64,000 nt of DNA from a virus, in the IMG/VR virus record IMGVR_UViG_3300037485_001404, positions 1 to 64,000 of that record. One strand, 5' to 3'. The notes under the pieces are model-generated. The model had not been told where the DNA came from and ran no database searches. It saw only the letters and a list, made by a program, of their open reading frames with translations. Made by a program: the position numbers and the translations under genes. Shown in pieces: positions 50,015-61,916 of this stretch (its first letter is position 1; each line of letters opens with the position of its first letter).

Positions 50015-50649
50015 ACCATACCTTAGGTAAATACATTTTTGACAGAATAAATAAACTGTTTATCCTAGATATCGTTGTCAAGAATGGAAAAACCTATTTT
50101 CAATGCTCCTGCGATTGCGGTATCCTCTGCGAAAAAGATGTCTATAAAGTCCTGTCGGGTCACACTAAATCTTGTGGCTGTAATCTGGTCAATAGGGACT
50201 ACCAAAAAAGACATGGGGGGCACAAATCTTCAGAATACGGCACCTGGGAAGCAATGAAAGCCAGATGCAACAATCCTAAAAATAAGAAATACAGGCTGTA
50301 TGGAGGAAGAGGAATAAAGGTTTGCGATAGGTGGAATGATTTTGTAAATTTCTACGAGGATATGGGCCTCCGCCCGGAAGGGTTAACTCTGGAGAGGATA
50401 GACAGTGACGGAAATTACTGCCCTGATAACTGTAAATGGGCTACTTATTCAGAGCAGAATAGAAATACAACTCAAAATCACTACCTAACTCTTGGAGAAA
50501 CTACTTTAACTATCGTTGGGTGGGCCGAGAGATTGGGATGGGATCCCGCAGTAATCCACGCTAGATTAAAATATGGCTGGTCCATAGAGGATACTTTAAC
50601 AATACCGAAAAGGAATAGGAGTCCCAATGGTACAAGAGAAGCCTTCTGA
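50011..50649 (+). CDS. HNH-family homing endonuclease
   Basis: CSCDCG...TKSCGC, YGGRGIKVCDRW, TLERIDSDGNYCPDNCKWAT, QNRN; same family as 17432-18139. Confidence 0.9.
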   Translation: MNHTLGKYIFDRINKLFILDIVVKNGKTYFQCSCDCGILCEKDVYKVLSGHTKSCGCNLVNRDYQKRHGGHKSSEYGTWEAMKARCNNPKNKKYRLYGGRGIKVCDRWNDFVNFYEDMGLRPEGLTLERIDSDGNYCPDNCKWATYSEQNRNTTQNHYLTLGETTLTIVGWAERLGWDPAVIHARLKYGWSIEDTLTIPKRNRSPNGTREAF

Positions 50650-51844
50650 TAAGTTTTTGAAATTTGTATCCGCAGTTAAGGCCGAATCAATTGAGTTTCC
50701 TGAACTGAAACCGTATCTGGTAGCCCAAGCCATTCTTGAATGTGGCAGGGGTATTACAGAGTTGTTCGACCAATACAATAACCCTTTCGGAATGCACTAC
50801 CATGATTTCCTGGCACCTTACGGTATCGGCGTTCAATATGTGGCCTGCGACGGACCTGGGCTTTATACCAAGTTTGATAATTATTCATCCGCTATTAAGG
50901 GTTTCTACAAGTGGTTCGATGCCTGGGCACACTATGGCGACTGGAGAACCGAGGCACGCAAAGGCGGGCTTGCTTTTCTGAAGCACATCGGACCTTTCTA
51001 CTGCCCTCCCGGATTCACTGAATCCTGGAAAACTGCACATGGAGGTCTTGACTATGCGGACTATATCGTTAACAACCTGCTGGTAGAAGCTAAGGTTTTG
51101 TTGAATGATGCGACAGCAACCCCCGATAAACCCACCCCAAAACCAGTACCGAAGGATTTTACCTATCTTTCTGCAGATACTGCTGAAGCAAAGAACTTGG
51201 TCAATGCTTTGGTGTCTAATTTTCCAAAAGAGTTTAGCTTTAAGCTGTATAAACCACCTACGGATACTCCAGTAGAGCCACCAAAACCCCCAAACCCGCC
51301 AACAACTGCCGGGAAAAAGATACTTCTGAACCCAGGACACAGTGCTTCTTCCCCTGGCGCGGATGGACTGTCATCTAGCGTCCATGAAGAGGTGCAAAAT
51401 CTCCTTGCCGCAAATATTATGGCCTCAGATCTCAGAGCTGCAGGGCATACTGTAGATATCTTTAGGTCAGAGAGCAATGATCTTCAAGCTGTGGGAGACA
51501 AAGCTAAGGGGTATGATGCTGCATACTCTCTCCATCACAATGCTTTTGACAAGAAAGAGCATTACGTCTGGATATTCGGCCCGAGTGGAGAAGCTAACCA
51601 AGCATCTAAAGATCTTGGAGCCAAGATTACTGCAGCAATTGGAAAAGCTCTTAATCTTGCAGATAATGGGATGGAAAAGTCGGGATATACTGTCCCCAAT
51701 CTGTTCGCGAAGAATTGCAAAGGCCCATCTGGTCTTATTGAATTCTATTTCATTGATGCATATGGGGATCTTAATGTTGTTAATGATAGAACAACTAAAG
51801 CGGCACATGCAATGGCTGGAGCAATGATTAAATACTTCGGGTGA
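50627..51844 (+). CDS. endolysin: GH73 glucosaminidase plus Amidase_3
   Basis: AQAILECG...NNPFGM (GH73); Pro-rich linkers; ILLNPGH...E...SLHHNA...LIEFYFID (Zn amidase). Confidence 0.88.
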   Translation: MVQEKPSDKFLKFVSAVKAESIEFPELKPYLVAQAILECGRGITELFDQYNNPFGMHYHDFLAPYGIGVQYVACDGPGLYTKFDNYSSAIKGFYKWFDAWAHYGDWRTEARKGGLAFLKHIGPFYCPPGFTESWKTAHGGLDYADYIVNNLLVEAKVLLNDATATPDKPTPKPVPKDFTYLSADTAEAKNLVNALVSNFPKEFSFKLYKPPTDTPVEPPKPPNPPTTAGKKILLNPGHSASSPGADGLSSSVHEEVQNLLAANIMASDLRAAGHTVDIFRSESNDLQAVGDKAKGYDAAYSLHHNAFDKKEHYVWIFGPSGEANQASKDLGAKITAAIGKALNLADNGMEKSGYTVPNLFAKNCKGPSGLIEFYFIDAYGDLNVVNDRTTKAAHAMAGAMIKYFG

Positions 51845-52007: not shown

Positions 52008-53051
52008 ATGATAAGATTGGGGGTATTGTCTCCTTCGCCAATAGATACCACGGGTTTGTTTAGGGTAGGTTGGCCTCTAGCTCTATTACGTAGGCAAACC
52101 CCTAATTTTGTATATACGTACATCAATGAAGTATCCTGGCTATCGGCATCTCAAATTGATGCTTGTATGTTTCAAAGACCGTTTACTCCTGAGCATGTGA
52201 CAATCCTTAATAGGTTCAAAGAAGAAAGTGTTCCGACCTGGATTGAGTATGATGATCTTCTTACCGCAATACCGAAGCACAATCCTTCTTTCGATACTTA
52301 CGGTAAGCCAGACATACTGGAAGCATTGAAAATAATACCTGCTCTGGTAGATATTATTACAGTTACTACCCCTTACCTCAAAGAATGCCTACAATCCCCT
52401 TCAGTGAAAGATGTTAGAGTTGTCCCCAATGCTTGGGATGACTATCATCTTCCGATGGAACAAGAGAAGCACGCGGTCAACAAATCTCTCCGTATCGTAT
52501 GGAGAGGAAGTCCAACACATATTTCCGATCTTGATCTATATGCCGATCCGGTTATTAGACTGCACAAAGAGGATCCAAGCATTCACTGGTTCTTCCTTGG
52601 GTTTAGACCTTGGTTTACTAGACAAATGGAACAAACACACTGCCATGTCTTCGAGAAACCTCTAGATATGGTAGAATACATTAGATTTTTAGGGACTATC
52701 AGACCAGATATTCTCGTAGTACCTTTGACAGATGATCCGTTTAATAGGGCTAAGAGCAATATTGCTTGGATGGAAGCATCCTTTGCAGATGCTGTGACTG
52801 TTGCTCCTGATTTCCCTGAATGGAATAGACCTGGGATTATAAACTACAAGGATTCTATTCTAGATACGCTATCGGATACGATAGTGAACATTGATTCGTT
52901 GAAGCACAATACAAAACTATCCTGGGATTTCATCCAAGAAAATCTTCTTCTCTCCAAGGTTAATTATTTGAGATGGGAAGTGCTGGAAGAAATAATAAGT
53001 AAGAAGAAGCCTATTACGACTTCTTTCTTACCTCTAGGATCGAGACCCTAA
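52008..53051 (+). CDS. glycosyltransferase (GT-B/GT4-like)
   Basis: FQRP, EYDDLL, ITVTTPYL, VVPNA, IVWRGSPTH, PLTDDPFNRAKSNIAWME. Confidence 0.85.
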   Translation: MIRLGVLSPSPIDTTGLFRVGWPLALLRRQTPNFVYTYINEVSWLSASQIDACMFQRPFTPEHVTILNRFKEESVPTWIEYDDLLTAIPKHNPSFDTYGKPDILEALKIIPALVDIITVTTPYLKECLQSPSVKDVRVVPNAWDDYHLPMEQEKHAVNKSLRIVWRGSPTHISDLDLYADPVIRLHKEDPSIHWFFLGFRPWFTRQMEQTHCHVFEKPLDMVEYIRFLGTIRPDILVVPLTDDPFNRAKSNIAWMEASFADAVTVAPDFPEWNRPGIINYKDSILDTLSDTIVNIDSLKHNTKLSWDFIQENLLLSKVNYLRWEVLEEIISKKKPITTSFLPLGSRP

Positions 53052-54406
53052 CGCTAAGGAACCATACGGTACTATACCAGAACCTCACCACATCTCAATA
53101 CGCACTACCTCTATTCCACTTTATCGCACAATGCCGTCATGATAACATACAACGCATTACCCTCTCGACACTATAGCATACTTCACCTATTCTTCAAAGT
53201 ATATGATACCACCCTACCTACATAAAACCTCGCTCGACTTCTACGCCACGGGACGGCATCTTACCACTACCGTACCGAACAGCACTCCACTTTACCCTCA
53301 CTCCATGGAACAACACCTAACCAAAGCCCGACCGCATCTCACATCGCTTTATCCGGATAGCAAGTTAAGAGACTATACCTCCATGCCACGAGGCTCGGCT
53401 CGACCACAACCTTACATGACGAAACAATGCTATACCCCAACTGTACGGTCCCGTATAAGATTTCACCTTCTGCAGTACCGATACCAAACCACAACACCAA
53501 ACTACATAACTATGCCGTCACCTTTCCCACCTTATCGGATCTCACCTTTACTTCACGCGAAGAAACTTTACCCCCTACATTAAGGCATCCTAGCTTAATC
53601 TACCTCGACCACAACTAAGTCCACTTGACCATCGCCTTACGTCATAATATCCTATCTTGCAGGAACGCAATCCCAGTATACAATGATTCAACACGACCAT
53701 CGCCTTATCAAACACTGGTTCATCTTACCATCACACCAATGTACGTGGCTCTACCCCCATCTAATCTTATTGCACCCCACCTCTGCTGGAAAGCACATAG
53801 CGCAGCTTTACCTACACCGCAAGACACGTAACGCAGCATTGCCGCTACCTTGACGAATCGAACAGAACAATACCGCTACTTTATTGCCAGATTACTTGAC
53901 CTCAACCCACCTTTAATAGGCGGTACGTGGCATAACTTTAACGGCACTGGACCAAACCTGGACCAAAGACGAATTTACTCCTAACACATACTACGCGGCT
54001 TTACCTTTACCTGCATTAACCTACTACACCTTCGATTGAAGTTAGTTTACCCCACCTACAACCTCACATCGCTTTATCAAACCAATACTACACTTGACTT
54101 TACCTAGACGAAAAATTCATATTATATCACCGAAACTGCAACCTATTTCACTTTACCGTGGCATTGCGCCAATCCAGTCTACCACAACAACATACCGCAA
54201 AATCCTACCATCACCGAACTGTACCGAAGACAACCATACCCTTACAGAATCCAGCGAAACCAGGCCCGCACTGAAGACAACGAAACCAAACCCTCACTAA
54301 ACTGCACCGTGACAGAAGGTGGCTTAACTCTAACTTTACATCGATGGCTTTAGTGCCACCCTTCGATTGAAGTTAGTTTACCCATCCTACAACCTCACAT
54401 CGCCTT
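53051..54406 (-). ncRNA. periodic non-coding array (5-nt period, ~50 units of 5n+1 nt); candidate guide-RNA array of a VIPR-like system
   Basis: Plus strand parses as runs of purine-initial pentamers (mostly AC-NNN) closed by a hexamer, usually RCC-NNN, e.g. 53269 accgt accga acagc actcc acttt accctc | actcc atgga acaac accta accaaa. Lies directly downstream of the RAMP gene. RNA function and strand are inferred. Confidence 0.8.
54029..54403. repeat. 44-bp direct repeat within the array (54029-54072 and 54360-54403)
   Basis: CCTTCGATTGAAGTTAGTTTACCC(CA/AT)CCTACAACCTCACATCGC; 42/44 identical. Confidence 0.9.
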
Positions 54407-54477
54407 TCTTATAACAGTCAATCTCCCACAGACTGTTCCCACCAAAATCATCCGGATTCTCCAGTCATTTCAAGCAC

Positions 54478-55326
54478 TTAGAGCCATCCGGGTGGTAAAT
54501 CTTCTTCGTATCCCGGCAATTCTTCCAACTGATAAAGAAATGCGCCTTTGTTTCCACTGCCTCTCCATGATCCTAATCCCTGATTCTTACCAAGGTCTAG
54601 CAATACCTTCAACGCTTCAAATGTAAATGGTGATCCCTTTCTAACTCTAAGCACTGTTCCCATTTCCGTATCCACAGGTAAGACTTCTGAAACAGCGATA
54701 GCAGTCTTTCGCTTGCCCATAACATCAAAGTGAATAGCTCGCTCACAATAAGCGGGATTGCCCTCACTGTCACGAGCAATATCGCGGTCAGGGCGCATAA
54801 ATTCATCAACAGCTTTAAGGTCCAGAGCACCACAACCACCAGCAGCCACTTTAGTCTTGACAATGGATCTATCCTCCGTAGAAAGCATCACTTCGAGATT
54901 AGCCTTGATGTTACCAAGGATCATATGAGTAGACACCATAGGCCAACCCTTTTCATCTCTCATGAAAACTGTTGCCTGCTTTTGAGTTCCTTCTTTTACT
55001 GCTTCATCAAACTCTTTCTCAACGTCTACGATCAACTCCAGCAATTCAGGGATAGTCTCAGGCAAAGCTTCATTCCTTCCAAGTCTTGCTTGAAAGGATC
55101 TGACTATCCCCTGTAGTTCCATTATTTCTTTCTCCACAGCCAATGCACTACCGGAATACTTTGCCAGTGCCTTGGTGACCTTGGCACCGAGCTTGTTGGC
55201 TTTCTCCAATTCTTTCTTGGTCTTAGAGAGGACGTGCTCATTGTAGATCGATGCTTTAGGGCAAGTGCCCAACATGTCTCGGATAAGCTTGAGGCGAAGG
55301 CGATAGTACAGAAAATTCCCAGTCAT
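54478..55326 (-). CDS. stand-alone RAMP / Cas7-like RNA-binding protein (Vipr-like)
   Basis: RAMP hallmarks in the expected order: first strand YRLRLKLIRDMLG; FMRDEKGWPMVSTHMILGNIK (cf. the Cas7-group G-P-IP---lKG-lR motif); thumb region ERAI...RKTAIAVSEVLPVDTEM; glycine-rich loop GLGSWRGSGNKGAF. AAGGAG RBS. Confidence 0.85.
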   Translation of the reverse strand: MTGNFLYYRLRLKLIRDMLGTCPKASIYNEHVLSKTKKELEKANKLGAKVTKALAKYSGSALAVEKEIMELQGIVRSFQARLGRNEALPETIPELLELIVDVEKEFDEAVKEGTQKQATVFMRDEKGWPMVSTHMILGNIKANLEVMLSTEDRSIVKTKVAAGGCGALDLKAVDEFMRPDRDIARDSEGNPAYCERAIHFDVMGKRKTAIAVSEVLPVDTEMGTVLRVRKGSPFTFEALKVLLDLGKNQGLGSWRGSGNKGAFLYQLEELPGYEEDLPPGWL

Positions 55327-55366
55327 AATTGCTCCTTATGCGTTAAGTGACTTCAGAACCGTTTTT

Positions 55367-55394
55367 ACCCTATCACACCCACCGAGGATGTCAA
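55367..55394 (-). promoter_or_regulatory. putative promoter of the RAMP gene and array
   Basis: Minus strand TTGACA, 16-nt spacer, TAGGGT with extended -10 TG; about 40 nt upstream of the ATG. Confidence 0.45.
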
Positions 55395-59683: not shown

Positions 59684-59944
59684 ATGAAAGCTTTCTGCCT
59701 CTTCGCTTTACTGTCATGTTGTGCTACTGCTTCTCCCGTACCTGATACAACATACCGTTGTGTCTGTAACAACGTAGACAAGGGCAGATGTGAAACCATT
59801 TACATCAAATACTCTGAATACACATGGTATGTTAATTTCTATTTCAAAGAGACTACCATCTTGAAACGATTGAATGAGTGCAGAGTAGATCGAACTGCGA
59901 CAGACCCTTTCCCTAACCTTAACCTTACGATAGGTAGACTATGA
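59684..59944 (+). CDS. small exported / lipoprotein-like protein
   Basis: MKAFCLFALLSCC signal-like N-terminus after GGAG. Confidence 0.55.
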   Translation: MKAFCLFALLSCCATASPVPDTTYRCVCNNVDKGRCETIYIKYSEYTWYVNFYFKETTILKRLNECRVDRTATDPFPNLNLTIGRL

Positions 59945-60009
59945 CCCTTAACCTTTCTGACACTGAGGGATACTGACCTGACTGGTCGGCCAGTCAACTA
60001 GGGTAGACT

Positions 60010-60279
60010 ATGAAAGGATTCTTTATGAAACGCATGAAATGGAATGGATTAAACCTTGAAGTGACTGAGTTGATACTCCTCCGAAATGGATGGGAGTATT
60101 ACGTGATCGGTGAACGTACTCAAGATATCTTCAATGCTTTGGTATGGGGTTTTGAAATAGAGTTAGGTGACGTATCCTATGAAGAGATTAAGCCATACAT
60201 CATGTGTAGCGAGATGCTTGACAAAGACAGTGATGCTCTCCCAATTCCAGATGGAGAATGGATGGATAACAATGAATAG
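60010..60279 (+). CDS. DUF2958-like protein
   Basis: WEYYV...FNALVWGFEIELGDVSYEEI pattern. Confidence 0.65.
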   Translation: MKGFFMKRMKWNGLNLEVTELILLRNGWEYYVIGERTQDIFNALVWGFEIELGDVSYEEIKPYIMCSEMLDKDSDALPIPDGEWMDNNE

Positions 60280-60466
60280 ATTGCAGAATATGCGTGATAG
60301 GTTTGCAGAGTTAATTCAGCTTGACAGTGGAGCATGTAGCGTGATAGCGATGGAAGTTGTAAGACTGTACCTCGAAGATACAGGTAACACTGACCTAGCT
60401 AAACGATTGATAGGACCAATCAACTATCGCTTAGCAGAGATAAGGGAGCAAGATCCAAATGGCTAA
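60272..60466 (+). CDS. small hypothetical protein
   Basis: ATG at 60272; overlaps both neighbours by 8 nt. Confidence 0.55.
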   Translation: MNRLQNMRDRFAELIQLDSGACSVIAMEVVRLYLEDTGNTDLAKRLIGPINYRLAEIREQDPNG

Positions 60467-61916
60467 AGTTAATCCACCGTTCACATGGAAATTTGCAACA
60501 CCTCCACCGATTAGACCTGATATGATGAAAGGAATAGACAATGGACCAGAAGACAAGGTTGAGCATACTGAGGGAACAGATGCGATTGAAACAGGAACAG
60601 ATGGATCGGCAACTGGAGAACCTGAAGATAATTCAGGAACAGATGAAGGAATTGAGCCTGATGATACAGACAGTGAAGGGGTATTAGATGGAGAAGATAT
60701 GCCCAATCCAAGCGGAGATCCAGGAGAGAACACTGACAGCCAAGAAACTAAAACTCCTGATAGAGAAGATGAAGAGGCAAATCCTGACAATGGAGAAGGA
60801 GATAGTACTGAGGACGAACCAGATGACTCACAACAGGGAGATGATAGCGACACTGAAGGACAATGCCAGGGAAAGCTCTGCGAGCTAGTCCAACAGCATG
60901 ACGAGATGATAGGCGAACAGGCTAAGATAATGCTTAGTCTTAAGCAGGAGACTAGTGCTAACACTGCTACCATGAAGTCTCATGATAGGGTATTGAAAGA
61001 GCATCATGATCGTTTCCAGTCAGTCAATGCCGGTATGGCCAAATTGTCAGATAGACTTGACTCTTCAGGCAAATGGGCTAACACTGTCAATGAGAAATTG
61101 CTTAGCCTTAACGAAGCAATCAAGCTACGACAGAACATTGTCCGTATTGAATTGACAAAAGATGATGAAGTTGTCAAGGCAGTAGAAGGCCAACACTTCA
61201 TGTTTGACGTGTTGCTAAGAACAGTCATGACGGGCAAATTCGTATGGCTTGTTGGCCCGGCAGGTAGTTTCAAGACCGTATCTGCTAAAATGGTAGCAGA
61301 TACGCTAGACCTGCCTTTCTACTGTACGTCAGTGTCTAGTCAGACCTCGGTCACGGCATTAGTAGGGTACATGGATGCAGGTGGTACCTACCGACCTAGT
61401 GCCTTCAGGAATGCTTATGAGTTTGGTGGTGTATTCCTGCTAGACGAAGTTGATGCAGGCAATCCCAATGTTCTAACGGCATTGAATAGTTCTGAGAATA
61501 CGTTCTACTCATTCCCTGATCAGATGGTCCAAAGGCATCCTGCTTTCCGACTTATCGCTGCGGGAAATACGTACGGTACTGGTGCATCAAGGCAACACGT
61601 TGGACGAAATCAGCTAGACGAAGCCACGTTGAACAGGTACGTGTTCATTGAATGGCCTTATGATAATGAAATGGAGATGAATCTAGCCACTAACAAGGAA
61701 TGGTGTAAACTTGTACAGCATGTGAGAAAAGAAGTTGACAACATGGGTATGCAAATCATAATCTCACCTAGGACAACGCTAATGGGGGAAGCATTGCTAA
61801 AGAAAGGTATCAAGCAGAAAGATGTAGTCAACATGGTCATCATCAAAGGATCCAATGCCGATACCAAGGCGAAGATAGAGAGAGTGATCAATGATTATAA
61901 CAGACAACTCAAGTAA
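60459..61916 (+). CDS. MoxR/CobS-like AAA+ ATPase with acidic N-terminal extension
   Basis: GPAGSFKT, FLLDEVD, IAAGNT, LDEATLNRY, ISPR. Confidence 0.9.
   Translation: MAKVNPPFTWKFATPPPIRPDMMKGIDNGPEDKVEHTEGTDAIETGTDGSATGEPEDNSGTDEGIEPDDTDSEGVLDGEDMPNPSGDPGENTDSQETKTPDREDEEANPDNGEGDSTEDEPDDSQQGDDSDTEGQCQGKLCELVQQHDEMIGEQAKIMLSLKQETSANTATMKSHDRVLKEHHDRFQSVNAGMAKLSDRLDSSGKWANTVNEKLLSLNEAIKLRQNIVRIELTKDDEVVKAVEGQHFMFDVLLRTVMTGKFVWLVGPAGSFKTVSAKMVADTLDLPFYCTSVSSQTSVTALVGYMDAGGTYRPSAFRNAYEFGGVFLLDEVDAGNPNVLTALNSSENTFYSFPDQMVQRHPAFRLIAAGNTYGTGASRQHVGRNQLDEATLNRYVFIEWPYDNEMEMNLATNKEWCKLVQHVRKEVDNMGMQIIISPRTTLMGEALLKKGIKQKDVVNMVIIKGSNADTKAKIERVINDYNRQLK

What the first reader, a model, noticed from the sequence alone, without database searches (positions are those of the whole stretch)
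53051..55394. Phage-encoded solo RAMP/Cas7-like gene plus a 5-nt-periodic non-coding array: candidate RNA-guided system with a gapped guide code (VIPR-like)
Seen in sequence: a 282-aa gene with RAMP motifs, its own putative promoter, and about 70 nt downstream on the same strand a ~1.35-kb stretch with near-continuous 5-nt periodicity. On the gene's strand it reads as fixed GY/GGY positions alternating with variable bases, e.g. GGT AA AGT GG AGT GC TGT TC GGT AC GGT. No cas1/2/3/5/6/10 and no repeat-spacer CRISPR were recognised in the window. Established: Cas7-family RAMPs polymerise along guide RNA with a fixed nucleotide step per subunit. Inference: one subunit binds each pentamer, gripping the constant bases and displaying the variable ones, so the array would encode about 50 non-contiguous guides, plausibly against competing phages or host genes. 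From memory this resembles the recently reported viral VIPR systems (RAMP plus GGY/NN RNAs); I cannot verify family membership, and this scaffold is more degenerate than strict GGY.
Basis: partly seen in the sequence, partly recalled or inferred. Interest (0 to 1): 0.97.

Follow-up and report, generated by a model that had tools for sequence, protein, structure and literature searches.

The report
Phage VIPR system, punctuated pentamer array
A complete 75-kb sediment phage carries a lone Cas7-like protein gene followed by a 1.3-kb array of about 49 short five-base-repeat units, a divergent example of the VIPR RNA-guided silencing systems first described in 2026; it is real and tidy, but its class is already in print and its targets are still unknown.

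Summary
The gene at 54478-55326 (-) encodes a 282-aa protein with a Cas7/Csm3 RAMP fold. A non-coding array lies downstream on the same strand, at 53041-54343. Its 5-nt periodicity has z = 9 at lag 5. It is the only such stretch in the whole 75,234-bp phage genome.

The array has two levels. Pentamers read Y-N-N-N-G, and they are grouped into about 49 units of 5 or 6 pentamers plus one extra G (26 or 31 nt).

The gene-plus-array pair recurs in 49 of 53 assessable homologous loci (46 of 50 without duplicates). No other gene is conserved beside it. All 25 arrays analysed have 5n+1 units. In near-identical arrays the scaffold G never changes (0 of 538 sites), while the three N positions take 35 of 41 substitutions.

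The locus fits the published VIPR class (bioRxiv 10.64898/2026.04.26.720920), whose text already mentions YNNNG repeats and "staggered" arrays. Homology to SUSP1 Vipr is remote: hhalign probability 86%.

No target was found under any decoding rule, and no RNA data exist for this stretch.

This scan has already noted VIPR-like loci in at least 386 other genomes.

Verdict: a new member of a known kind. The uncharacterised detail is three variable bases per protomer, with no tail and no accessory gene.

The parts
55367..55394 (-). Promoter-like site for the RAMP gene: TTGACA, 16-nt spacer, TG-n-TAGGGT
   Evidence: Read directly. The -10 hexamer is too weak for the consensus scanner to list it. 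Inference only.
55332..55337 (-). Ribosome-binding site AAGGAG, 5 nt before the ATG
54478..55326 (-). vipr-like gene: 282-aa solo RAMP (Cas7-like). It has an RRM core, a long beta-hairpin thumb (residues 193-216), a G-loop (G250-G261, motif G-L-G-x-W-R-G-S-G-N-K-G) and an inserted bundle of three helices (residues 27-114).
54344..54477 (-). Leader between gene and array. It holds a weak hairpin plus T-run (54464-54452), a TG-T-TATAAG extended -10-like site (about 54417-54409), and a 47-nt non-pentameric element (54406-54360) that recurs at 54075-54029.
   Evidence: The roles are inferred.
53041..54343 (-). vrRNA-type array: about 49 units of [Y-N-N-N-G] x 4-6 plus one extra base (G in 29 of 49). 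The commonest unit lengths are 26 nt (20 units) and 31 nt (12 units).
53004..53025 (-). Terminator-like hairpin plus T-run that ends the array. It faces the convergent glycosyltransferase gene 52008-53051 (+).

Best explanation
This is a VIPR-type RNA-guided DNA-binding system of a lytic-looking sediment phage. It consists of only a Vipr-like RAMP gene and a long 'staggered' vrRNA array.

Proposed mechanism:
1. The gene is transcribed from its own promoter. The array is transcribed on the same strand, by read-through or from leader or internal promoters, and ends at the hairpin at 53025-53004 (inferred).
2. One RAMP protomer binds each pentamer. The constant G (position 4) and the following pyrimidine (position 0) are gripped at the protomer interface by the G-loop Trp-Arg pair (W254, R255), and the variable bases are displayed (inferred from the SUSP1 structures).
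3. The extra G after every 5-6 pentamers breaks the 5-nt register. It therefore delimits about 49 separate short guide units, each with an A-rich first pentamer (Y-A-A-R-G) and a G-G end. These are probably cut apart or assembled as separate mini-filaments (inferred).
4. Each unit recognises double-stranded DNA of a competing mobile element or of the host through a gapped code, and silences transcription by binding. No nuclease or accessory gene accompanies the system.

Shown here: the fold, the array anatomy, the conserved gene-array linkage, and purifying selection on the scaffold G with variable N positions. Inferred: RNA expression, binding, processing, the pairing rule and the targets.
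For: Fold:
- The AF2 model has pLDDT 78.
- The top Foldseek PDB hits are all Cas7-family RAMPs, with E 1.7e-5 and probability 1.0.
- The nearest viral models are solo viral RAMPs: A0A822ZZ46 (E 4e-12) and A0A8S5R426 'Cas system-associated RAMP' of a Siphoviridae (E 4e-10).

Sequence:
- A family profile of 145 sequences hits type VII Cas7 (E 8.8e-7) and the Csm4 G-loop (E 3e-4).
- The profile-profile match to the SUSP1-type Vipr family has probability 86% and E 4.9e-6 over 129 columns. It aligns W254/R255 with SUSP1 W178/R179, which hold G2 and Y3.
- SUSP1 D177, which reads G1, is S/T/A/Q here. This fits N-G-Y rather than G-G-Y.

Linkage:
- 49 of 53 assessable homologous loci (46 of 50 without duplicates) carry a G-rich 5-nt-periodic array next to the gene on its strand.
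- The RAMP gene is the only conserved ORF across 60 loci.

Architecture:
- All 25 arrays segmented have 5n+1 units with an extra G. Unit length is clade-specific: 26/31 nt here, and 36-46 nt in L004, L006, L047 and L048.

Selection in near-identical arrays:
- Substitutions: 0 of 538 at the scaffold G, 1 of 112 at the extra G, and 35 of 41 in total at the three N positions.
- Indels are one pentamer (5 nt), one unit (31 nt) or blocks of units.

Uniqueness: there is one array in the whole genome.

Literature: VIPR is defined as Vipr plus pentamer vrRNAs. It is mostly viral, has alternative YNNNG repeats and staggered tail-less arrays, and acts by transcriptional silencing.
Against: - There is no evidence of transcription or processing; no RNA run holds the stretch.
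- No target was found under NN or NNN rules with target periods of 2-5. This was tested in the phage's own genome, in 464 kb of related contigs, and in five exact-pattern scans of IMG/VR.
- The sequence link to the only biochemically studied Vipr is weak: HMMER E 0.28 and hhalign probability 86%. The family profile scores better against CRISPR type VII Cas7.
- SUSP1-type Vipr models did not appear among the top 50 BFVD Foldseek hits.
- A unit of 5-6 pentamers would give only 10-12 specifying bases under the published two-base rule. That is too few for unique targeting in a bacterial genome.
- No 3' tail, ribozyme or Rfam family marks unit ends.
Confidence: 0.8

Rival explanations
1. Same parts, different target: the RAMP-RNA filaments bind RNA (mRNA of a rival or the host) rather than double-stranded DNA, as Csm3, Cmr4, type VII Cas7 and Cas7-11 do.
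For: The closest solved folds, and the best sequence hit of the family profile, are RNA-targeting Cas7 proteins of types III and VII. The variable positions are purine-rich and C-poor on one strand. That asymmetry would not be expected if both DNA strands were targeted equally.
Against: The family alignment shows no invariant acidic residue soon after strand 1, which is where, from my own knowledge of Csm3, its catalytic Asp lies. The only characterised systems with pentamer guides bind dsDNA. No RNase partner is conserved.
Confidence: 0.1
2. Decoy or sponge: the long array RNA, with or without the RAMP, does not guide anything. It soaks up a rival phage's or satellite's Vipr protein, or host Cas7-family proteins. 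This would be an anti-VIPR or anti-CRISPR RNA.
For: Solo vrRNAs that redirect a rival's VIPR machinery are reported (abstract). The array is unusually long, its scaffold is degenerate, and no targets were found.
Against: The array is linked to its own RAMP gene in 49 of 53 assessable loci. A pure decoy would not need three hypervariable positions or discrete 5n+1 units with conserved polarity.
Confidence: 0.06
3. The periodic stretch is a DNA-level feature (a satellite-like tandem repeat, a protein-binding DNA array, or a recombination hotspot) that is only accidentally next to the RAMP gene.
For: There is no expression evidence. Arrays change by block insertions and deletions.
Against: Strand orientation relative to the gene is conserved in nearly all loci; the G-rich strand is the gene strand. 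Selection is position-specific. Linkage persists across unrelated phage backbones that share no other gene.
Confidence: 0.03

Closest known systems
VIPR systems with alternative repeats and 'staggered' vrRNA arrays (bioRxiv 10.64898/2026.04.26.720920; Methods 'VIPR type classification' and legend of fig. S18)
   Same: A lone viral RAMP. A pentamer array on the same strand whose consensus is degenerate relative to GGY/NN (the paper lists NNNGG, YNNNG and NNNNG). Units abut directly, so that the end of one marks the start of the next. There is no CRISPR array and there are no cas genes.
   Different: I could not see the figure or the tables (no supplements are held). It is therefore untested whether this clade is among the paper's 667 systems, which of the seven types it belongs to, and whether their 1-nt stagger is the same as the 5n+1 extra-G rule found here. 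The paper states that staggered arrays were not among those confirmed by small-RNA sequencing.
Type II VIPR of Escherichia phage SUSP1 (Vipr, PDB 36pp; vap1; four vrRNAs)
   Same: A phage-borne solo RAMP with thumb, G-loop and helical bundle. The G-loop Trp-Arg that holds G2 and Y3 is conserved. There is one pentamer per protomer by analogy. An A-rich T-A-A-G-G pentamer sits at the start of the repeat tract in both systems.
   Different: - The protein is 282 aa against 195 aa, with an 88-residue three-helix insertion.
- Sequence similarity is detectable only profile-to-profile.
- The Asp that reads G1 is absent.
- The pentamer has three variable bases, not two.
- Units are 4-6 pentamers without a pseudoknot tail, against 9-16 repeats plus a tail.
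- There are about 49 units against 4.
- There is no vap gene.
CRISPR Cas7-family backbone proteins (Csm3/Cmr4 of type III, Cas7 of type VII, Cas7-11)
   Different: Here there are no cas partners, no CRISPR repeats and no Cas1. The step is 5 nt instead of 6. Guides are hard-wired in a repeat-free array instead of being acquired as spacers.

Membership tests
RAMP superfamily (Cas7-like) | Glycine-rich loop and thumb hairpin | tested here: met
   G250, G252, G258 and G261 are invariant, in the motif G-L-G-x-W-R-G-S-G-N-K-G. The model has a long hairpin at residues 193-216. The G-loop aligns to those of Csm4 and Cas7.
RAMP superfamily (Cas7-like) | Match to the curated Pfam/NCBIfam RAMP models | tested here: not met
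   There is no Pfam, PHROG or NCBIfam hit for the protein. PF03787 finds nothing in the genome. Only 5 of 145 family members hit PF03787 weakly. The curated models simply do not reach this clade.
VIPR system | Vipr protein homologous to published Vipr proteins | tested here: inconclusive
   The family profile against the SUSP1-type profile gives hhalign probability 86% and E 4.9e-6 over 129 columns. HMMER against 36pp_D gives E 0.28. The narrow profile aligns only the G-loop. The paper's own seed and PSI-BLAST set could not be consulted.
VIPR system | Adjacent tandem pentanucleotide repeats with GGY/NN or a related consensus, at least 4 units, on the gene strand | tested here: met
   The array is 1,303 nt of Y-N-N-N-G pentamers. 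The same is seen in 49 of 53 assessable homologous loci. YNNNG is one of the consensus forms the paper lists.
VIPR system | Scaffold positions conserved, guide positions hypervariable | tested here: met
   Among near-identical arrays there are 0 of 538 changes at G and 35 of 41 changes at the three N positions.
VIPR system | Non-CRISPR context: no cas operon, no CRISPR array; viral genome | tested here: met
   The genome is a complete phage genome with direct terminal repeats, a terminase and an endolysin. It has no Cas1, no second RAMP and no repeat-spacer pattern.
VIPR system | Accessory vap gene beside vipr ('typically' present) | tested here: not met
   No neighbouring ORF of the window has a homologue in any of 60 loci, and no second gene family is conserved next to the RAMP gene. 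The paper names six vap genes for seven types, so one type would have none; this is my inference.
VIPR system | Conserved structured 3' tail capping each vrRNA (type II) | tested here: not met
   Units abut directly. There are no inverted repeats in the array and no Rfam family or ribozyme. This fits the tail-less 'staggered' architecture rather than type II.
VIPR system | vrRNAs expressed and co-purifying with Vipr; DNA binding by the 1-nt-skip rule; natural targets in rival elements | not testable with these tools
   No RNA run holds the stretch. Computational target searches under several rules did not exceed shuffled controls or found nothing.

The most novel reading that the evidence does not exclude
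This clade uses a different gapped code from the published one. Each protomer grips only G-Y and displays three bases, not two. The one-base register break after every 5-6 protomers makes about 49 tail-less mini-guides of 26-31 nt. SUSP1 filaments have 5-6 subunits per helical turn, so each mini-guide would span about one turn. They would be released without ribozyme, tail or accessory protein. That would be a second, independent rule set for programmable gapped recognition, with the smallest guide units known.
Probability: 0.3. Interest if true: 0.7.

Novelty: new member of a known kind. Interest (0 to 1): 0.42.

Why it matters
VIPR is a months-old class, and only type II has been dissected. 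This locus and its roughly 60 relatives define a clean, accessory-free clade. It offers one 282-aa protein and a hard-wired array of very short, punctuated units with three variable bases per pentamer.

If these units are separate guides, the published rule of two paired bases and one skipped base cannot give them enough specificity. The clade is therefore a direct test of whether the VIPR code has more than one form, and of how tail-less arrays are cut into guides.

The position-specific substitution data and the loss of the G1-reading Asp give concrete, testable structure-function predictions. For the wider scan it is a further, well-documented VIPR example rather than a new kind of system.

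Tried and rejected
1. Direct database naming. There was no Pfam, PHROG, NCBIfam or PDB sequence hit for the protein alone, and no nucleotide or protein match in the phage collection.

The contigs of the closest homologues (89% and 83% identity) could therefore not be fetched.

3. RNA evidence. No RNA holder is listed. Laying three DNA runs gave only the probable source contig and 151-nt fragments of near relatives.

4. Targets.
   - Units were decoded as N4N5, N5N1 or NNN with target periods of 2-5.
   - Against 464 kb (own genome plus related loci) they gave no excess over reversed or shuffled guides. The period-5 'hits' were other arrays, and an apparent 18-versus-6 excess came from duplicated loci.
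   - There were no self-targets in the phage genome.
   - Five exact-pattern scans of IMG/VR found nothing. They comprised two units under NNN period 3 and period 4, and one two-unit pattern under the published rule.

5. Codon test. NNN triplets show only general TA depletion, not stop-codon avoidance.

6. Host. The phage has no tRNAs. The terminase is at most 25% identical to any cultured phage. No relative of the RAMP occurs in 185,579 species genomes by the pattern scan. The host is therefore unknown, and host-genome target searches were not possible.

7. A weaker 5-nt signal at 59751-60250 is not vrRNA-like by inspection, and the genome-wide HMM does not call it.

8. Spacing of GGY sites as an HMM-independent test was only mildly informative, because G at position 3 creates internal GGY sites. 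The autocorrelation is the cleaner test.

9. Supplements of the discovery paper are not held, so type assignment was not possible.
Full report
**What is there**

The window belongs to a complete 75,234-bp virus record with direct terminal repeats. It encodes a large terminase, an endolysin and glycosyltransferases. It comes from a sediment metagenome.

On the minus strand, a 282-aa ORF (54478-55326) has an AAGGAG ribosome-binding site and a TTGACA-N16-TG-n-TAGGGT promoter-like site upstream. A leader of about 135 nt follows the stop codon. Then comes 1.3 kb without credible ORFs, closed by a hairpin plus T-run at 53025-53004. That hairpin faces a convergent glycosyltransferase gene.

**Is the periodicity real?**

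Base identity at lag 5 is 0.376, which is 9 standard deviations above shuffles. The in-phase signal fades by lag 15-25. Lags 21, 26, 31, 52 and 57 stand out at z = 6-9. The 5-nt phase therefore slips by +1 roughly every 26-31 nt.

A Viterbi segmentation with a slip state resolves the stretch into 49 units. Each unit is [Y-N-N-N-G] x n plus one extra base. The extra base is G in 29 of the 49 units. Unit length is 26 nt in 20 units and 31 nt in 12.

The same model with a background state, run on both strands of the whole genome, calls a single array, 53041-54343 (-).

**The protein**

No curated family names the protein. An AlphaFold2 model built on 23 homologues (pLDDT 78) matches only Cas7-family RAMPs:
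- Foldseek gives E 1.7e-5 and probability 1.0.

The family alignment has an invariant S-T-H-M-I-L-G-N-x-K helix start and a G-L-G-x-W-R-G-S-G-N-K-G glycine loop. The model has a long thumb hairpin at 193-216. It also has an inserted three-helix bundle at 27-114 that shorter relatives lack.

The nearest viral models are solo phage RAMPs, with E 4e-12 and 4e-10. Atlas neighbours are unnamed viral clusters.

**Relation to published Vipr**

VIPR is described in three 2026 preprints. It consists of a lone, mostly viral RAMP that polymerises one protomer per pentamer on vrRNAs of GGY/NN repeats. The complex binds dsDNA with a one-base skip and silences rival elements.

I located the SUSP1 locus in NC_028808.2. 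Its Vipr is identical to PDB 36pp.

- The window's narrow family profile aligns only the G-loop with it.
- A 145-sequence profile of the wider family aligns 129 columns with a 40-sequence SUSP1-type profile, at probability 86% and E 4.9e-6.
- The same profile scores type VII Cas7 at E 8.8e-7 and SUSP1 Vipr at E 0.28 by HMMER.

Homology to Vipr is therefore probable but remote, and I mark that membership feature as inconclusive.

The alignment is informative. SUSP1 W178 and R179, which hold G2 and Y3, correspond to the nearly invariant W254 and R255. SUSP1 D177 reads G1 and is essential. Here it is S, T, A or Q. That matches an array in which only G-Y is fixed.

**Linkage and conservation**

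I fetched 7 IMG/VR and 55 JGI loci that encode relatives. Of the 53 with enough flank to judge, 49 carry a 5-nt-periodic array beside the gene, G-rich on the gene strand. Most arrays lie immediately downstream and a few lie upstream as well. Without duplicate records the count is 46 of 50.

No other ORF is conserved. None of the window's neighbours has a homologue in any locus, and clustering finds only the RAMP gene across 60 loci. The module is thus a two-part cassette that sits in unrelated phage backbones, without a vap gene.

The pattern scan found no relative in 185,579 reference prokaryote genomes.

**Two-level architecture is a family trait**

All 25 arrays segmented show 5n+1 units closed by an extra G. 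The preferred n is clade-specific: 5-6 here, and 7-9 in L004, L006, L047 and L048, whose arrays reach 4 kb and more than 100 units.

I pooled 442 units of exactly 5 or 6 pentamers:
- The first pentamer is biased to Y-A-A-R-G.
- The last pentamer ends in G (93-97%).
- The extra base is G in about 80% of them.

Units therefore have polarity and defined ends.

More distant relatives make the punctuation explicit. L064 closes each unit with a constant G-T-G-A-A-G-T-A-A-G-G plus G, and L063 repeats G-C-A-A-A-G-G. SUSP1 repeat tracts also begin with T-A-A-G-G.

**Selection**

Alignments of near-identical arrays from different samples show 41 substitutions:

| Position | Substitutions | Sites |
|---|---|---|
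| 0 (Y) | 5 | 537 |
| 1 (N) | 8 | 538 |
| 2 (N) | 15 | 537 |
| 3 (N) | 12 | 538 |
| 4 (scaffold G) | 0 | 538 |
| extra G | 1 | 112 |

Indels are one pentamer (5 nt), one unit (31 nt) or multi-unit blocks of 142-294 nt. Blocks also move between arrays.

Position 3 is the counterpart of the first G of GGY. It varies as freely as the two published guide positions. The data cannot say whether it pairs with the target or is merely unread.

**Mechanism**

The most likely reading (0.8) is a VIPR-type silencing system. Its array is transcribed with or after the gene and is coated one protomer per pentamer. The register-breaking G divides it into about 49 short guides.

- A 26/31-nt unit would carry 10-12 specifying bases under the published rule, or 15-18 if all three N positions pair. 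Only the latter would be specific in a bacterial genome. That is an argument, not evidence.
- The SUSP1 filament has six subunits per turn when free and five when bound to DNA. This equals the pentamer count per unit here but not in the 7-9-pentamer clades, so I treat it as a coincidence worth testing.
- No nuclease or helicase partner is present, so binding and repression, not cleavage, is the expected output.

**What failed**

- No RNA data exist for this stretch.
- Decoding units under NN or NNN rules with target periods of 2-5 gave no excess over shuffled or reversed guides in the phage genome or in 464 kb of related contigs.
- Five exact-pattern scans of IMG/VR found nothing.
- The host is unknown.
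- The array has no Rfam family or ribozyme.
I could therefore not assign a VIPR type or fetch the closest relatives' arrays.

**Novelty**

The class is in print. The paper's text already lists YNNNG repeats and staggered, tail-less arrays. This scan has 565 VIPR-like notes in at least 386 genomes.

This report adds a documented clade:
- a 282-aa Vipr-like protein with an enlarged helical bundle;
- no vap gene;
- G-Y/NNN pentamers;
- a quantified 5n+1 punctuation rule with position-specific selection;
- a residue-level rationale for the degenerate scaffold.

I file it as a new member of a known kind, with moderate interest.

Noticed in passing
window 54360-54406 and 54029-54075; also about 53707-53688, 53639-53620 and 53353-53338: A 47-nt element that does not follow the pentamer rule occurs twice at 94% identity, once in the leader and once 331 nt into the array. 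Its first part, T-A-A-R-G-C-G-A-T-G, recurs five times. It may mark internal promoters or sub-operons of the array, or recent duplication.
   Followed up: partly
L064:1790-2100 and L063:1000-1200: Distant relatives of the RAMP (26-32% identity) have arrays with explicit constant punctuation. L064 uses G-T-G-A-A-G-T-A-A-G-G plus an extra G after each run of G-Y-N-N-N pentamers. L063 uses a recurring G-C-A-A-A-G-G. An A-rich T-A-A-G-G pentamer also opens the SUSP1 repeat tracts (L008:27990 and 27810, minus strand).
   Followed up: partly
L006:6873-10800, L047:1049-4800, L048:5696-8150: These relatives carry arrays of 2.5-4 kb with 65-109 units of 7-9 pentamers. The scaffold G is weak in them (about 0.5), so that only the pyrimidine is fixed. 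A 308-aa ORF recurs beyond the array in four of these loci.
   Followed up: no
L003, L021, L022, L023 and L031, L032, L035: Near-identical phages from different samples differ in their arrays by clean block insertions or deletions of 142-294 nt. One 119-nt block sits at different positions in two arrays. The arrays therefore evolve by cassette gain, loss and shuffling.
   Followed up: partly
L007:6700-7200: In the most distant IMG/VR relative (30% identity) there is only a short, weakly periodic stretch of about 150 nt. It is followed directly by a gene that looked ParB-like to me by eye. This is a possible accessory gene in that lineage.
   Followed up: no
window 50627-51844, 52008-53051, 60459-61916: An endolysin with both amidase_3 and glucosaminidase domains; a glycosyltransferase convergent with the array; and an AAA_5 ATPase that matches a PHROG labelled porphyrin biosynthesis (CobS-like).
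   Followed up: no
window 59751-60250: A weak excess of lag-5 identity (0.109) in a stretch with small ORFs. It has no Y-N-N-N-G pattern, and the genome-wide HMM does not call it.
   Followed up: yes
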